Source: Candidatus Uhrbacteria bacterium
GTDB taxonomy: Bacteria; Patescibacteriota; Patescibacteriia; JACQRZ01
Reading direction: 5' to 3'
Length of the DNA stretch: 40,235 bases
Assembly: GCA_023246955.1 (NCBI GenBank)
Contig: JAHFHK010000005.1
Span: 1 to 40,235, forward strand
Shown here: positions 28,711 through 31,280 of the stretch, piece by piece
How positions within the stretch are numbered: position 1 is the first letter of the stretch
How the letters are laid out: each line of letters opens with the position of its first letter
Notes under the pieces: generated by a model
What the model was told of the DNA's origin: nothing
The model's database searches: none
The model's input: only the letters and a program-made list of their open reading frames with translations
Position numbers and translations under genes: made by a program

Positions 28711-30071
28711 AAAAAGTCGTCCCCAAGAAGAAGGCCCCTGCCCCTTCTCATCAGGTGAAGAAGCCTGCACCTCATGCCAAAAAAGCCCCTTCGAAGCCTA
28801 TCCCCAAAACTTCTTCGAGGCCATTGCCGAAGAAGTATCCCTCGGGGTCAAAGGGATCCAGAAAGACGTTTCATTACCCCCCTTCTTCTTCCTCGAAGAA
28901 ATCTGCGAGTATTCCTATGGTTGCCGTCGAACAGACGAAGCCTATTTTTCCTACTCAAGAAAAACTTGCCGTTATATTACAAAAAGGGCGTTCACGGGGT
29001 TTTTTGACGGAAGAAGAGATTTTGCTCTATTTTCCTGACGTGGAAGTGTTCCTCGAACAATACGAGGACTATCTTGATATCCTTGATGGGCATAGTGTGC
29101 AAATTGTTGAGCGTCCTCCGTCGCTTCTCGGCAACATTTCTCTCAAATCTACCGCTCAACAGAATCTCGCTCCTCAGCCAAAGAAGAAAGCTTCAAAGGC
29201 GGTAGCGCCTAAGCTCATGGCGAGTACGATCGATCTTTCTGATATTTCTACCGATTCTATCCAGATGTATCTTCGAGAAATCGGTAAAGTGCCCCTTCTT
29301 ACGACGGAAGAGGAAATTTCTCTTGCAAAACGAAAGGATCGAGGAGATAAGGAGGCTGAATATCGTATTATTGAAGCAAACTTGCGTCTCGTGGTATCGA
29401 TTGCGAAGAAGTTTGTGGACAAGAGTCTTTCGCTTCTTGATTTAATCCAGGAGGGAAATATCGGGCTTTTCCGTGCGGTTGAGAAGTTCGACTATCGTAA
29501 GGGGTATAAGTTCTCTACCTATGCAACGTGGTGGATTCGTCAGGCAATTACTCGTGCCCTGGCTGATCAATCACGTACCATTCGTATTCCGGTACACATG
29601 GTGGAGACGATCAATAAGTTTCAGCAGATCCAGCGCCAGCTCATTCAAGACCTGGGACGTGAACCGTTGCCGGAAGAAGTCGCTGCTGAAATGGGTGAGA
29701 CAGTGGAGAAGGTGCGTCATATTATCAAAATCAACCAGGATACTATATCCATCGATACCTCTGTGGGCGATGATGATGAAAACAGTACGCTCGAGGACTT
29801 TATCGAAGATGTTCGTACGGTTACTCCTGATAGGGCGGCCGCGTTACAGCTTCTGAAAGAGCGTATGCATGCCATCATCAATACCCTCCATCCTCGTGAG
29901 CAGAAGATCCTTGAGATGCGTTTTGGACTTCTTGATGGTGTTTCTCACACTCTCGAAGAGGTGGGGGAGGAATTCGGGGTTACCCGTGAACGTATTCGTC
30001 AGATTGAAGCAAAAGCCCTCGAAAAAATCGAAAAAATCGTCGGTGTCGAGCGGTTGCGAGATTACGTATAG
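28707..30071 (+). CDS. rpoD: Primary sigma factor RpoD
   Basis: [54 protein letters not shown]; ATGA overlap with dnaG. Confidence 0.96.
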
Positions 30072-30088
30072 GGCGCGGGATATCCCTC

Positions 30089-30116
30089 TTGCAAATCATA
30101 GAGAACGTGCTACCAT
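30089..30116 (+). promoter_or_regulatory. Promoter of the tRNA-Asn locus
   Basis: TTGCAA-16nt-TACCAT with an extended -10 TG. Confidence 0.55.
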
Positions 30117-30139
30117 GGGTAGTGCGTTCTTTTGTTATA

Positions 30140-30188
30140 TATATTCGGGGGTAGCTCTCCGCCAGCTGGCGGAGGTAGAGCAGTTGGC
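30140..30188 (+). pseudogene. Duplicated 5' half of tRNA-Asn with a palindrome inserted in the D-loop
   Basis: TATATTCGGGGGTAGCTC[TCCGCCAGCTGGCGGA]GGTAGAGCAGTTGGC versus TATATTCGGGGGTAGCTC[AGT]GGTAGAGCAGTTGGC at 30425-30460. Confidence 0.9.
30157..30174. repeat. 18-bp perfect palindrome CTCCGCCAGCTGGCGGAG
   Basis: CTCCGCCAG followed directly by its reverse complement CTGGCGGAG. Confidence 0.95.
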
Positions 30189-30190
30189 AT

Positions 30191-30439
30191 ATGTATTACT
30201 TGTACGCGATATACAACGCAAAACATTCGAAGATATATATAGGGCAAACTGTTGATCTTGAAGAAAGATTACGTATTCACAATGAACGATTGATAAAAGG
30301 GTTTACCTCACGTTTTGATGGTGAGTGGCTTCTTATATATTCAGAGGAATCGGTCGATCGTAGTAGTGCATTATTGCGTGAGCATCAGTTGAAAAGTTAT
30401 CGAGGTCGGGAATTTATCCGGACGTATATTCGGGGGTAG
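30191..30439 (+). CDS. Small stand-alone GIY-YIG endonuclease (UPF0213/SLX1-like)
   Basis: YYLYAI...IYIGQTVDLEERLRIHN...FTSR...ALLREHQLK with the catalytic Tyr, Arg, His and Glu intact. Confidence 0.9.
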   Translation: MYYLYAIYNAKHSKIYIGQTVDLEERLRIHNERLIKGFTSRFDGEWLLIYSEESVDRSSALLREHQLKSYRGREFIRTYIRG

Positions 30440-30501
30440 CTCAGTGGTAGAGCAGTTGGCTGTTAACCAATTGGTCGTGGGTTCGAATCCCACCTCCCGA
30501 G
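30430..30501 (+). tRNA. tRNA-Asn (GTT), CCA not encoded
   Basis: Acceptor TCGGGGG/CTCCCGA plus G73; D-stem GCTC/GAGC; anticodon loop CT-GTT-AA; T-arm GTGGG-TTCGAAT-CCCAC. Confidence 0.95.
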
Positions 30502-30505
30502 CTTC

Positions 30506-30568
30506 TGGGATGAGATTGATTTCTCGTCCCAAGAGAAAAGCATCTTCAGAAATGAGGATGTTTTTCTC
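30506..30568 (+). terminator. Two tandem hairpins, including a terminator, after tRNA-Asn
   Basis: TGGGATGAGA/TCTCGTCCCA, then GAGAAAAGCATCTTC/GAGGATGTTTTTCTC. Confidence 0.6.
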
Positions 30569-30593
30569 TATAGTCGTAAGTTATAAATATTTT

Positions 30594-31280
30594 ATGAAGT
30601 GCCCATATCCTGAGTGTAGAAAAGACTACAATGATGAGGGTTGGCCTCCTGTATATCATGGATGGATCGACCCGGAGGATTGGGAGGGGAGCATCAACGA
30701 AGAAATGACGACAAATAGAGTTCTGCTTATTACAAGGCGATGTCGTTTCTGTAATCAATTATTCCATACTCTGAGCGTTGGTCATCAAAATTATATCTCT
30801 GATCATGGCTGGAAAAGGCAGGATCCAACAATTGAGCCGCTTATACAATACCCAACATCAAAAACTAAATTTGAAGCAAAAGGAGTCTCAAAGGAAGTTG
30901 TCGCAGCCTTTAATGAAGCAGAGCGATGTCGGTCAGTCGGATCTTTGACTGGAGCTGGAAGTTGTTTGCGTAAGGCTATATATACACTATGTGATGCAAT
31001 GGACGTATCTGGTGCAGATTATCGTGGGAAAATCGTAAACCTACCAGTCAAAACAGAGTATCAAGAGCTCTTGAAACAAATAAAATGGCTTGGTGATAAT
31101 GTAACCAAGCCGGGGCAAGAGAAATACACTATGGATATGGTTGATGTAGCTTTAGAAATTCTCCCTGTCCTTGTTGATGATATATATATCAAGGACGAGA
31201 AGGCTGATACTGCTGCCAAACTCCTTGCGAGAGCGCGATCCGTAAACTCTCTTCCTGAAACATCAGAAGAGCAAGAGTAA
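30594..31280 (+). CDS. DUF4145-like domain protein with an N-terminal Zn ribbon
   Basis: CPYPEC and CRFC; EAERC...GAGSCLRKAI...IKWLGD resembles the DUF4145 (HEPN-like) pattern; start moved to ATG 30594. Confidence 0.7.
   Translation: MKCPYPECRKDYNDEGWPPVYHGWIDPEDWEGSINEEMTTNRVLLITRRCRFCNQLFHTLSVGHQNYISDHGWKRQDPTIEPLIQYPTSKTKFEAKGVSKEVVAAFNEAERCRSVGSLTGAGSCLRKAIYTLCDAMDVSGADYRGKIVNLPVKTEYQELLKQIKWLGDNVTKPGQEKYTMDMVDVALEILPVLVDDIYIKDEKADTAAKLLARARSVNSLPETSEEQE

What the first reader, a model, noticed from the sequence alone, without database searches (positions are those of the whole stretch)
30140..30501. Candidate tRNA-embedded selfish element: [5' half tRNA-Asn] - GIY-YIG nuclease - [intact tRNA-Asn]
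Seen: a 249-bp nuclease gene is the only content between two direct copies of the tRNA-Asn 5' half. The copies match from 5 nt before the tRNA to C32 of the anticodon loop, apart from the D-loop. The ATG lies 2 nt after the break point, and one upstream promoter would transcribe all three parts. I see no integrase, transposase, terminal inverted repeats or intron core. Known: integrative elements usually duplicate tRNA 3' ends using an integrase, and GIY-YIG domains act as homing endonucleases. Inference: this is a minimal (~285-bp) element that enters a tRNA gene near the anticodon, restores the gene by carrying a 5' half, uses the tRNA promoter and spreads by nuclease-triggered recombination. 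It is the best candidate for an undescribed system in this window.
Basis: partly seen in the sequence, partly recalled or inferred. Interest (0 to 1): 0.88.

Follow-up and report, generated by a model that had tools for sequence, protein, structure and literature searches.

The report
tRNA-linked GIY-YIG nuclease cassette with hairpin
A tiny nuclease gene sits between a disabled half-copy and the working copy of the only asparagine tRNA gene, and this layout, marked by a conserved 16-base palindrome, recurs at many tRNA genes across ultra-small (Patescibacteria/CPR) bacteria, pointing to a widespread mobile element that the papers I searched do not describe.

Summary
Window 30140-30188 is a 5' copy of tRNA-Asn (5-nt flank plus positions 1-13 and 17-31). 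An 82-aa GIY-YIG ORF (30191-30439) follows, and its stop codon is U8-A9-G10 of the intact, only tRNA-Asn (30430-30502).

The layout is general. Of 80 loci encoding close relatives (45-68% identity, many Patescibacteria lineages), 64 have a same-strand tRNA directly downstream (50 Asn, 13 Lys, 1 Thr). Five more have an apparently intron-split tRNA-Asn (Rfam intron match in 4), and 66 carry the palindrome within 130 nt upstream. In 60 related genomes, 33 of 58 short GIY-YIG ORFs abut tRNAs of 14 isotypes, against 1 of 34 of the other GIY-YIG hits.

Sister genomes show empty rpoD-tRNA-Asn sites, intron-bearing sites and an ORF-less remnant. Tandem arrays occur. The ORF is under purifying selection (dN/dS 0.07-0.16) and folds like Slx1/UPF0213. 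Hairpin type follows the protein clade, not the tRNA isotype.

Best reading: a selfish, homing-type nuclease cassette with a cognate hairpin. The cleavage site and mode of spread are untested. No description was found in the papers searched.

The parts
30089..30116 (+). Candidate promoter TTGCAA-N16-TACCAT, overlapping the rpoD terminator hairpin (weak)
   Evidence: The sequence is conserved as TTGCAA-N16-TACCAT/TACTAT at the same place in the relatives L147 and L149. The consensus scan did not report it.
30100..30132 (+). Terminator-like hairpin after rpoD (stop at 30069-30071)
   Evidence: 15 pairs followed by a T-rich tail. rpoD is identified by sigma-70 domains.
30140..30188 (+). Disabled 5' copy of tRNA-Asn ('half*'): 5-nt flank (30140-30144), tRNA bases 1-13 (30145-30157), palindrome, tRNA bases 17-31 (30174-30188)
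   Evidence: Exact repeats. The script placed the junctions at lastL 13 and firstR 17, with the match ending at base 31.
30158..30173 (.). 16-nt palindrome TCCGCCAGCTGGCGGA replacing D-loop bases 14-16 (AGT). With the flanking C and G it forms a 7-bp stem with a 4-nt loop.
   Evidence: Sequence. The stem appears in both the MFE and the centroid fold. This exact 16-mer lies upstream of 49 of 80 homologous ORFs, and the pattern with any 4-nt loop upstream of 61 of 80.
30191..30439 (+). 82-aa stand-alone GIY-YIG nuclease gene (Slx1/UPF0213-like). Its last codons and stop are encoded by the 5' flank and bases 1-10 of the tRNA.
   Evidence: Invariant residues Y5 Y16 G18 H30 E52 E64 K68, with R26 at 90% or more. 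AF2 pLDDT 96.2. Foldseek best hits are 1zg2 and Slx1. dN/dS among relatives is 0.07-0.16.
30430..30502 (+). Intact tRNA-Asn(GTT), the only tRNA-Asn found in the assembly
   Evidence: ARAGORN on the whole genome finds 38 tRNAs, 1 of them Asn.

Best explanation
Window 30140-30429 is a compact selfish cassette on the 5' side of the genome's only tRNA-Asn gene. It has three parts. The first is a dead 5' copy of the tRNA (flank -5 to base 31) whose D-loop bases 14-16 are replaced by a conserved 16-nt palindrome. The second is a short spacer. The third is an 82-aa, single-domain GIY-YIG nuclease gene of the Slx1/UPF0213 type, which reads into the intact tRNA and stops at its U8-A9-G10.

It is one member of a large family in Patescibacteria. 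In that family, short GIY-YIG genes, each clade with its own GC-rich hairpin, sit directly upstream of tRNA genes of many isotypes. Sister clades sit at start codons of protein genes and in or next to RNase P RNA.

Most likely mechanism (inferred, not shown): the gene is transcribed with the tRNA from upstream. The nuclease cuts DNA at or near the hairpin or D-loop site of a cassette-free tRNA gene. The break is then repaired from a cassette-bearing copy. The tRNA segment left of the hairpin and the intact tRNA serve as homology arms, so the essential tRNA is always regenerated.

The hairpin is the element's cognate cis site and travels with the ORF. Recombination between the two direct tRNA repeats removes the ORF, leaving empty sites or ORF-less remnants. 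This matches the gain, decay and loss cycle of homing endonuclease genes (recalled concept).
For: Shown:
(1) Anatomy.
(2) Recurrence. Of 80 loci encoding relatives (45-68% identity), 64 have a same-strand tRNA within 320 nt downstream: 50 Asn, 13 Lys, 1 Thr. Five more (L037, L043, L044, L060, L104) read as a tRNA-Asn split after CTGT, with an Rfam group I intron match in 4 of them. Four loci end within 44 nt of the ORF and one is N-masked. 66 of 80 carry the palindrome within 130 nt upstream.
(3) Census with an internal control. Among 92 GIY-YIG ORFs in 89 loci from the relatives, 33 of 58 short-type ORFs have a tRNA within 150 nt downstream, covering 14 isotypes. Only 1 of 34 of the remaining hits (mostly the ~95-aa type) does. 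17 of the 33 have an upstream half with alignment score 30 or more.
(4) The half is made from the local target. Bases 1-7 match the locus's own tRNA exactly in 41 of 48 loci. In Asn loci the figure is 89%, against 8% when compared with other loci's tRNA-Asn.
(5) Hairpin type follows the protein clade across isotypes and genomes: L035 Asn / L231 Pro / L240 Val; L011 and L258 Phe / L229 Asn; the window clade Asn plus Lys. Variants in palindrome position cluster on the protein tree.
(6) Presence/absence in the window's own family. rpoD was found in 13 of its 15 other genomes, and none of the 13 loci has the ORF. tRNA-Asn is intact and unoccupied in G015, G001 and G012. It is intron-bearing in G011, G003, G005 and G006. 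G010 has an ORF-less half plus palindrome. Only G000 and G039 of 61 genomes have the window-type protein.
(7) Tandem arrays occur in L079 and L054.
(8) The gene is functional. dN/dS is 0.07-0.16 in 8 registered pairs and the catalytic-type residues are invariant.
(9) The fold is closest to UPF0213 (1zg2) and to the structure-specific nuclease Slx1.

Precedent: T4 SegB, a GIY-YIG homing endonuclease in a tRNA cluster, recognises a tRNA T-psi-C motif (abstract of PMC2330249).
Against: - No cleavage, target or transfer has been observed. Everything about the mechanism is inference.
- The protein is a bare catalytic domain with no DNA-binding module, unlike Seg/Tev enzymes.
- The regenerated tRNA keeps the putative target, so self-cleavage would have to be avoided somehow.
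- The segment after the hairpin (bases 17-31) also matches the local tRNA. A simple cut-and-copy from a foreign donor does not predict this unless gene conversion follows.
- The protein trees are poorly resolved, with only 83-87 columns. Horizontal transfer is therefore supported by patchiness, not by a tested incongruence.
- G039 has the cassette in the same rpoD context, which is compatible with old vertical descent plus losses.
- The scan found no promoter.
Confidence: 0.6

Rival explanations
1. REP/RAYT-like system. The nuclease's real substrate is the GC-rich palindrome. The enzyme spreads 16-nt hairpins into hairpin loops around the genome. Its own gene is a resident 'mobiliser' parked beside a tRNA, with one palindrome next to it. 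tRNA homing is secondary or absent.
For: - The TCCGCC-N4-GGCGGA pattern is dispersed, with up to 31 copies among the 61 related genomes and reversed controls of 0-2.
- All 40 genomes examined that carry the window-type gene have the pattern: median 9 copies, 30 of 40 with 5 or more. Among the 60 relatives, 9 have 5 or more and the median is 0.
- Copies sit at the tips of other hairpins, inside RNase P RNA, and nested in themselves (L065, L067, L085).
- The palindrome replaces an ARY triplet at several different tRNA positions.
- Slx1-like fold.
- An ORF-less half plus palindrome lies at tRNA-Ile in the window's own genome.
Against: - The 40 genomes were picked from loci that mostly had a palindrome already, and they belong to other lineages than the control set.
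- G002 has 23 copies but no window-type gene in its assembly. Its rpoD region is also missing.
- The CCAGCC-type hairpin of another clade is not dispersed: 17 of 61 genomes have it, mostly as 1 copy.
- This reading does not explain the near-constant tRNA adjacency or the duplicated half.
Confidence: 0.25
2. Relic of an intron-encoded homing endonuclease. The ORF once sat in a group I intron in the anticodon loop of tRNA-Asn. Recombination with an intron-less copy left 5' exon - ORF - intact tRNA.
For: - Group I introns interrupt tRNA-Asn after CTGT in relatives, with an Rfam Intron_gpI match in 7 of 9 loci tested.
- Some introns carry an ORF with an HNH-like Cys/His motif (my reading of the sequence; not scanned) (L043, L104).
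- In some loci the half ends at CTGT (L074, L076).
- There is a weak match to TIGR01453, group I intron endonuclease, at 22.9 bits against a cut-off of 56.
Against: - The cassette has no intron core (Rfam, E up to 10).
- The half's right end varies from base 21 to base 37.
- The same architecture occurs at 14 isotypes and at protein-gene start codons.
- The fold is nearer Slx1/UPF0213 than I-TevI.
- Cassette and intron co-exist in L037, L043, L044, L060 and L104.
Confidence: 0.08
3. Host-beneficial, vertically inherited partner of tRNA genes (for example tRNA gene repair, processing or defence) that has been lost repeatedly. On this reading it is not a mobile element.
For: - Strong purifying selection.
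- The same rpoD context in G000 and G039.
- Co-orientation and overlap with the tRNA in most loci.
- A TrmH fusion of an Slx1-like domain hints at an RNA link (passage of PMC1564403).
Against: - Present in 2 of 61 related genomes for the window type.
- None of the 13 family loci where rpoD was found has it, and they include empty sites, a remnant and intron-bearing sites.
- Tandem arrays.
- The duplicated target halves are the mark of insertion.
- Many different targets.
Confidence: 0.06
4. Assembly artefact: a repeat-induced chimera around a tRNA.
For: Short-read MAG contigs often break or mis-join at tRNAs.
Against: - The layout recurs in well over 60 independent assemblies, including complete chromosomes.
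- An independent unitig spans 30151-30430 with 0 differences.
- The ORF is conserved and under selection.
Confidence: 0.01

Closest known systems
Phage T4 SegB (free-standing GIY-YIG homing endonuclease in the tRNA gene cluster)
   Same: A GIY-YIG nuclease gene lodged among tRNA genes. It recognises a conserved tRNA-gene motif and drives inheritance of itself and neighbouring tRNA DNA (abstract of PMC2330249). A 2026 paper reports SegB-driven segmental amplification (start of the abstract of PMC13096335 in the listings).
   Different: SegB is a phage enzyme. From memory, Seg proteins are larger and carry a DNA-binding part. The abstract I read mentions no duplicated tRNA half and no hairpin. 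Here the element is cellular, the protein is an 82-aa bare domain of the Slx1/UPF0213 branch, a 5' tRNA half is duplicated, and a cognate palindrome is present.
Prokaryotic stand-alone Slx1-like / UPF0213 GIY-YIG proteins (PDB 1zg2, 1ywl)
   Same: Same minimal fold. They are the best Foldseek hits. PMC1564403 describes them as the minimal stand-alone variant (passages).
   Different: The passages I read do not describe that group as mobile or tRNA-linked. In the census, the ~95-aa type with the C-terminal NPxW motif is not tRNA-linked (1 of the 34 non-short hits has a tRNA downstream), whereas the short type is (33 of 58).
GIY-YIG-encoding, non-intron insertions in CPR rRNA genes (PMC11270868)
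   Same: Same host group. GIY-YIG ORFs sit in insertions that are not introns, often at the tops or bases of stem-loops of a structured RNA gene (passages). Here relatives lie inside or next to RNase P RNA.
   Different: That paper does not mention tRNA or palindromes (0 occurrences of each). [quoted passage not shown]
REP sequences and their RAYT transposases (recalled)
   Same: A short dispersed palindrome together with a single gene flanked by it. The palindrome sits at hairpin tips.
   Different: RAYTs are HUH/Y1 enzymes, whereas this is a GIY-YIG nuclease. The link between gene and palindrome is correlative only.
Integrase-borne islands and prophages at tRNA genes (recalled)
   Same: They insert at a tRNA gene and keep it intact through a duplicated tRNA segment.
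   Different: Those duplicate the 3' end, carry a tyrosine or serine integrase and are kilobases long. Here the 5' part is duplicated, there is no integrase, and the insert is 285 bp.
Group I intron homing endonucleases such as I-TevI
   Same: GIY-YIG chemistry, and a weak sequence match to the I-TevI catalytic domain (E 0.067). Group I introns occupy the same tRNA-Asn in relatives.
   Different: There is no intron core and no DNA-binding domain. The ORF lies outside the tRNA.

Membership tests
GIY-YIG nuclease superfamily (PF01541) | Domain match above the curated cut-off | tested here: met
   53.9 bits against a cut-off of 22.6, residues 1-70
GIY-YIG nuclease superfamily (PF01541) | Conserved Tyr..Tyr-x-Gly, Arg, His and Glu of the active site (the role assignment is recalled) | tested here: met
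   Y5, Y16, G18, H30, E52, E64 and K68 are invariant, and R26 is conserved at 90% or more, in 76 sequences
Slx1 / UPF0213 branch of GIY-YIG | Fold closer to Slx1/UPF0213 than to UvrC/I-TevI; single domain | tested here: met
   Foldseek: 1zg2 at E 9e-4, Slx1 chains at E 0.014-0.07, UvrC at 0.22, I-TevI at 0.37. The model has pLDDT 96.2.
Free-standing homing endonuclease gene | Presence/absence polymorphism at a conserved site; sporadic distribution | tested here: met
   Empty, remnant and occupied rpoD-tRNA-Asn sites in one family. 2 of 61 genomes have the window type.
Free-standing homing endonuclease gene | Site-specific cleavage of the allele that lacks the gene, and gene conversion | not testable with these tools
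   Needs protein and a donor/recipient assay
Free-standing homing endonuclease gene | DNA-binding module beside the catalytic domain, as in Seg/Tev (recalled) | tested here: not met
   82 aa, with the whole length taken by the GIY-YIG fold
Group I intron with homing endonuclease | Ribozyme core flanking or holding the ORF | tested here: not met
   No Intron_gpI match in 29900-30800 at E up to 10. The same model finds introns in relatives.
Integrase-mediated tRNA-site element | Integrase gene and 3' tRNA duplication | tested here: not met
   Only one ORF lies between the repeats, and the duplication is of the 5' part
IS / transposon / MITE | Transposase or terminal inverted repeats with a fixed-length target duplication | tested here: not met
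   No transposase domain. No terminal inverted repeats at the cassette ends. The duplicated length varies between loci.
REP/RAYT-type system | HUH/Y1 transposase flanked by dispersed palindromes | tested here: not met
   The protein is GIY-YIG. The dispersed palindrome and the gene-palindrome adjacency are present, so the resemblance is in behaviour only.

The most novel reading that the evidence does not exclude
Patescibacteria may harbour a previously unrecognised class of mobile element. In it, a minimal Slx1-like GIY-YIG nuclease works with a cognate GC-rich DNA hairpin. The enzyme recognises and cuts hairpin or cruciform DNA at an ARY triplet in a loop, such as the tRNA D-loop, an RNase P or rRNA hairpin, or an older palindrome. 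It thereby spreads both 16-nt 'naked' hairpins (REP-like) and ORF-bearing cassettes. The cassettes rebuild the 5' part of whatever gene they hit, whether a tRNA half or a start codon. This would be a structure-guided counterpart of REP/RAYT and of homing endonucleases combined.
Probability: 0.35. Interest if true: 0.9.

Novelty: new variant of a known kind. Interest (0 to 1): 0.8.

Why it matters
If the reading holds, four things follow.

1. The smallest known bacterial genomes carry a prolific family of roughly 0.3-kb nuclease cassettes. These colonise the most conserved genes a cell has (tRNAs, RNase P RNA, rRNA, start codons) without destroying them.
2. Stand-alone Slx1/UPF0213-type GIY-YIG proteins would gain a concrete biological role. 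They are widespread, and no function for them came up in the papers I searched.
3. A hairpin-plus-minimal-nuclease pair with apparent site preference could be a compact DNA-targeting tool.
4. It would explain the pseudo-tRNA fragments seen beside these genes in CPR assemblies, and so help tRNA annotation and the assembly of such regions.

Tried and rejected
- The search for related loci with the alignment A1 failed because it had no conserved stretch. I used the single protein instead.
- Homodimer prediction gave no verdict: score 0.00, controls not run. It says nothing either way about binding.
- No RNA holder was listed for the stretch. The one metatranscriptome from the same sample covered only tRNA-like parts. 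It says nothing on expression.
- The viral-contig scan returned 28 loci: 25 match only the N-terminal GIY motif, and the three longer matches are 32-36% identical. A phage vector was therefore not found with this query.
- The promoter scan found no sigma-70-like site upstream of the half.
- The fold of the 5' region is not more stable than shuffles (z -0.87). Only the palindrome stem is robust.
- PADLOC and PHROGs gave only generic 'homing endonuclease' N-terminal matches. NCBIfam gave only TIGR01453 below its cut-off. The PDB sequence search gave only a weak I-TevI hit.
- The idea that every clade's hairpin is dispersed was tested with CCAGCC-N3-GGCTGG and not borne out: 17 of 61 genomes have it, mostly as 1 copy, and I matched 6-7 of 27 sites to GIY hits listed.
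- Rfam on 20 short-type loci without a downstream tRNA found only other tRNAs. The RNase P link appeared only after the loci were extended.
- In the dN/dS table, two pairs (L074/L076, L051/L054) were out of register (30-34% nt identity) and were dropped. One pair (WIN/L038) was saturated.
- In the trees, rows shorter than 75 aa or longer than 100 aa, or shorter than 70 aa or longer than 125 aa, were left out.
- Only 89 of the roughly 170 hits were examined in the census: the best hit per genome plus the next 60 by E-value, skipping one already held in L011.

Literature. Nothing describing tRNA-linked GIY-YIG cassettes or this palindrome was found in searches. Supplementary files were not opened and may bear on this. 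What I read of each paper:
- PMC2330249: outline and abstract.
- PMC11270868 and PMC1564403: passages around the search terms.
- PMC13096335: only the start of the abstract shown in the search listings.
Full report
OBSERVATION

- Two exact direct repeats, 30140-30157 = 30425-30442 and 30174-30188 = 30446-30460, bracket one ORF at 30191-30439.
- The downstream copy belongs to an intact tRNA-Asn(GTT) at 30430-30502 (ARAGORN; Rfam 74.1 bits).
- The ORF is an 82-aa GIY-YIG domain protein: PF01541, 53.9 bits against a cut-off of 22.6.
- The repeat runs from 5 nt before the tRNA to its 31st base (C32). The ATG follows 2 nt later.
- The ORF ends in the tRNA. Its TAG is U8-A9-G10.

It is a perfect 16-nt palindrome, TCCGCCAGCTGGCGGA (30158-30173), that replaces bases 14-16 (AGT).

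The genome is about 0.99 Mb in 60 contigs. It holds 38 tRNA genes, with this as the only tRNA-Asn. rpoD and dnaG lie upstream.

THE LAYOUT IS A FAMILY TRAIT, NOT A ONE-OFF

A scan of one genome per prokaryote species with the window protein returned 80 loci, 45-68% identical. Their record titles span many Patescibacteria groups: Saccharibacteria, Microgenomates lineages, Parcubacteria lineages, WWE3, Berkelbacteria, Doudnabacteria and others.

Downstream tRNA:
- 64 of 80 loci have a same-strand tRNA within 320 nt: 50 Asn-GTT, 13 Lys, 1 Thr. In most the ORF overlaps the tRNA start.
- Of the 16 misses, five (L037, L043, L044, L060, L104) read as a tRNA-Asn split after CTGT in the anticodon loop. 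Rfam Intron_gpI matched in 4 of these 5.
- Four more end within 44 nt of the ORF, and one is N-masked.
- Six lack a downstream tRNA. Three of these (L097, L105, L107), like L098, whose only downstream tRNA is the Thr counted above, have a tRNA just upstream.

Upstream palindrome:
- 66 of 80 loci have the palindrome (2 or fewer substitutions) within 130 nt.
- 61 have the exact TCCGCC-N4-GGCGGA pattern, and 49 have the identical 16-mer.
- The palindrome is embedded in a 5' copy of the downstream tRNA.
- Compensated variants occur: CCCGCC..GGCGGG in L112 and TCCGGC..GCCGGA in L110.

In the Asn loci the script placed the palindrome between tRNA bases 13 and 17 in 21 rows including the window. It placed it at 14/18 in four more Asn rows and one Lys row (L094). 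Small clades have it at 8/12, 10/24 or 21/25. The Lys clade has it at about 23/32. In most of these positions it replaces an ARY triplet. Nested copies (L065, L067, L085) sit at the AGC centre of an older copy.

CENSUS WITH AN INTERNAL CONTROL

In the window's 60 relatives, 50 genomes have GIY-YIG hits, often several each. I examined 89 of the roughly 170 hits: the best per genome and the next 60 by E-value. These contain 92 GIY-YIG ORFs of two types.
- The 58 short-type ORFs (about 80-90 aa, E at most 1e-20 to the short-type profile): 33 have a same-strand tRNA within 150 nt downstream, of 14 isotypes. One further ORF (L024) reads through a tRNA-Gln.
- The other 34 hits (mostly about 95 aa, with a C-terminal NPxW motif): 1 has such a tRNA.
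- 17 of the 33 have an upstream half with local alignment score of 30 or more.
- By eye, the halves are interrupted by one or more GC-rich hairpins of the form YCNGCC-loop-GGCNGR.
- By my tally of the loci, at least 21 of the 60 relatives hold a tRNA-linked copy.

Short-type ORFs without a tRNA are bracketed by inverted repeats and sit at other targets:
- Exactly at the ATG of protein genes, with the ATG duplicated (L029, L030, L209, L219, L245, L246, L266).
- After a duplicated ATGGCCGCTG (L237).
- Inside an RNase P RNA gene (G012; the rnpB match spans 913 nt and encloses the ORF).
- 18 nt upstream of rnpB (G037).

MOBILITY

The window's family holds 15 other genomes. rpoD was found in 13 of them, and none of the 13 loci has the ORF.
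- G015, G001 and G012 have an intact, unoccupied tRNA-Asn downstream of rpoD. In G015 and G001 only a short spacer lies between; in G012 about 250 nt do.
- G011, G003, G005 and G006 have an intron-bearing tRNA-Asn.
- G010 has a half plus palindrome with no ORF, directly before its tRNA-Asn.
- In the rest, tRNA-Asn lies further from rpoD or was not found in the locus.
- G011's flank (..TTCTTTTGGATTATAT|TCGGGAG) is nearly the window's own.

A contig from the same sample also joins 30134 to 30430 with 33 other letters. These are identical to the G015-type spacer, so it is a relative's empty site rather than an excision.

Other observations:
- Tandem arrays (half-ORF-half-ORF-tRNA) occur in L079 and L054.
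- The window's own genome has an ORF-less half plus palindrome in front of tRNA-Ile, in the 16S-tRNA-Ile spacer.
- The half is built from the local target. Bases 1-7 equal the locus's own tRNA in 41 of 48 loci. In Asn loci this is 89%, against 8% for other loci's tRNA-Asn.
- The hairpin, in contrast, follows the protein clade across isotypes and genomes. L035 (Asn), L231 (Pro) and L240 (Val) form a starred clade with the same double hairpin inserted at CAGTT^GG. L011 and L258 (Phe) and L229 (Asn) share CCTGCC..GGCAGG. The window clade (SH-aLRT 97) covers Asn and Lys with the same 16-mer.
- Palindrome-position variants also cluster, and the isotype changes only twice on the 70-row tree.

Both trees rest on fewer than 90 columns and are mostly unresolved. 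I therefore do not claim a tested host-gene incongruence.

THE PROTEIN

- Y5, Y16, G18, H30, E52, E64 and K68 are invariant, and R26 is nearly so, in 76 sequences.
- dN/dS is 0.07-0.16 in eight registered pairs.
- The AlphaFold model is confident: pLDDT 96.2.
- Its nearest solved folds are UPF0213 BH0048 (1zg2, E 9e-4) and the nuclease domain of Slx1. UvrC and I-TevI rank lower.
- Slx1 is described in those PDB titles as processing branched DNA.
- PMC1564403 (passages) treats the prokaryotic stand-alone Slx1-like proteins as the minimal GIY-YIG form. It also notes a TrmH fusion that hints at RNA.
- No DNA-binding module is present.

THE PALINDROME BEYOND THE CASSETTE

TCCGCC-N4-GGCGGA occurs in 29 of 61 related genomes, with up to 31 copies. 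Reversed-pattern controls give 0-2.

Many copies lie away from tRNAs. They are found at the tips of terminator-like or REP-like hairpins, nested in themselves, in coding sequence and in RNase P RNA.

All 40 genomes examined that carry a window-type gene have the pattern: median 9 copies, 30 of 40 with 5 or more. Among the 60 relatives the median is 0 and 9 have 5 or more. This comparison is biased, because the 40 were chosen from loci that mostly had one copy already and they belong to other lineages.

G002 has 23 copies but no window-type gene. Its rpoD region is also unassembled.

Another clade's hairpin (CCAGCC-N3-GGCTGG) is not dispersed.

HOW IT MOST LIKELY WORKS

Shown: the cassette's anatomy, its recurrence, target-derived halves, clade-specific hairpins, empty, remnant and tandem states, and a conserved, selected nuclease with a structure-specific-type fold.

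Inferred: the nuclease cuts cassette-free tRNA DNA, or the hairpin itself, around the D-loop ARY site. Repair from an occupied copy uses the tRNA segment left of the hairpin and the intact tRNA as homology arms. This copies hairpin and ORF while regenerating the tRNA. Recombination between the direct repeats deletes the ORF.

SegB of T4 is a precedent for a GIY-YIG homing enzyme aimed at a tRNA motif (abstract).

Open problems:
- How an 82-aa domain finds its site.
- Why the regenerated tRNA is not re-cut.
- Why the segment after the hairpin also matches the local tRNA.
- How a new half is made when the isotype changes.
- What happens to the mRNA when RNase P removes its stop codon.

The main rival is that the enzyme is chiefly a hairpin mobiliser, analogous to REP/RAYT.

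COMPARISON AND NOVELTY

It is a member of the GIY-YIG superfamily and of its Slx1/UPF0213 branch.

It behaves like a free-standing homing endonuclease gene, but it lacks the DNA-binding module. It adds two features I did not find described: a duplicated 5' tRNA half and a cognate hairpin.

It is not an intron, not an integrase element and not a transposon.

The nearest report for the same bacteria concerns GIY-YIG ORFs in non-intron rRNA insertions. It mentions neither tRNA nor palindromes.

Seven literature searches found no description. Supplements were not seen.

VERDICT

Novelty: a new variant of a known kind, with a fair chance (about 0.35) of being a new class of hairpin-guided element. 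Interest: 0.8.

Noticed in passing
own genome, contig C7:135-190 (minus strand), next to tRNA-Ile(GAT) at C7:58-134; outside the window: An ORF-less tRNA-Ile half sits directly before the intact tRNA-Ile, in the 16S-tRNA-Ile spacer. It consists of bases 1-13, the palindrome TCCGCCGGCTGGCGGA at the same D-loop position, then bases ~17-31. It looks like a decayed or ORF-free cassette.
   Followed up: partly
L149, L148, L150, L153 (relatives G011, G003, G005, G006); L037, L043, L044, L060, L104: tRNA-Asn is interrupted after CTGT of the anticodon loop by a group I intron (Rfam Intron_gpI in 7 of 9 loci tested). In L043 and L104 the intron holds an ORF with an HNH-like Cys/His motif (my reading; not scanned against a family library). 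Intron and GIY-YIG cassette can co-exist at one tRNA.
   Followed up: partly
L029, L030, L209, L219, L245, L246, L266, L237 (relatives): Sister clades of the short GIY-YIG ORF are bracketed by inverted repeats. They are inserted exactly at the start codon of protein genes (ATG|CCC[GA]GTA...TAC[CT]GGGT|ATG), with the ATG or the first 10 nt duplicated. From my reading of the first residues, the genes look like rpsB, map and galU.
   Followed up: partly
L269 (G012:C88:1209-2121, minus), L270 (G037:C5), L268 (own C43:38696-39245, minus), L271 (G002): RNase P RNA genes are targets too. One encloses a GIY-YIG ORF, so the rnpB match spans 913 nt. One has the ORF 18 nt upstream. The window genome's own rnpB is 550 nt long and holds two TCCGCC..GGCGGA hairpins, and G002's has nested ones.
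   Followed up: partly
G002, 20 sites (L160-L179); own C60:32143-32174: The 16-nt palindrome is dispersed. In G002 it often sits at the tip of a REP-like repeat (GTCATTCCGA...GAGGAATCCC). In the window's own genome two tandem copies sit in a ~130-nt repeat on C60, whose copy on C7 (~230-350) lacks them.
   Followed up: partly
L079, L054: Tandem arrays occur: half-ORF-half-ORF-tRNA-Asn (L054 is partly N-masked). L049 and L066 carry an extra half downstream of the ORF.
   Followed up: no
L012 (G057:C14): Here a GIY-YIG ORF lies downstream of tRNA-Tyr. The 3' part of the tRNA, interrupted by hairpins, is duplicated after the ORF and followed by a second ORF. This is a mirror-image arrangement.
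   Followed up: no
window 30594-31280 (+): The ORF right after tRNA-Asn (228 aa from the ATG) matches phrog_1305 'DNA binding protein' (E 8e-13). It also matches DUF4145 weakly (18.9 bits, below the cut-off). It does not recur with the cassette in the loci I looked at.
   Followed up: no
window 30532-30569: A 17-nt inverted repeat (88% complementary) lies just after tRNA-Asn. It is probably the tRNA's terminator.
   Followed up: no
L097, L102, L105 (titles: Bacteroidales / Paludibacteraceae): More distant relatives of the protein occur in contigs labelled Bacteroidales. In L097 and L105 the gene lies just downstream of a tRNA-Met (L102 is cut at the ORF start), and none has the palindrome. The family may reach beyond Patescibacteria.
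   Followed up: no
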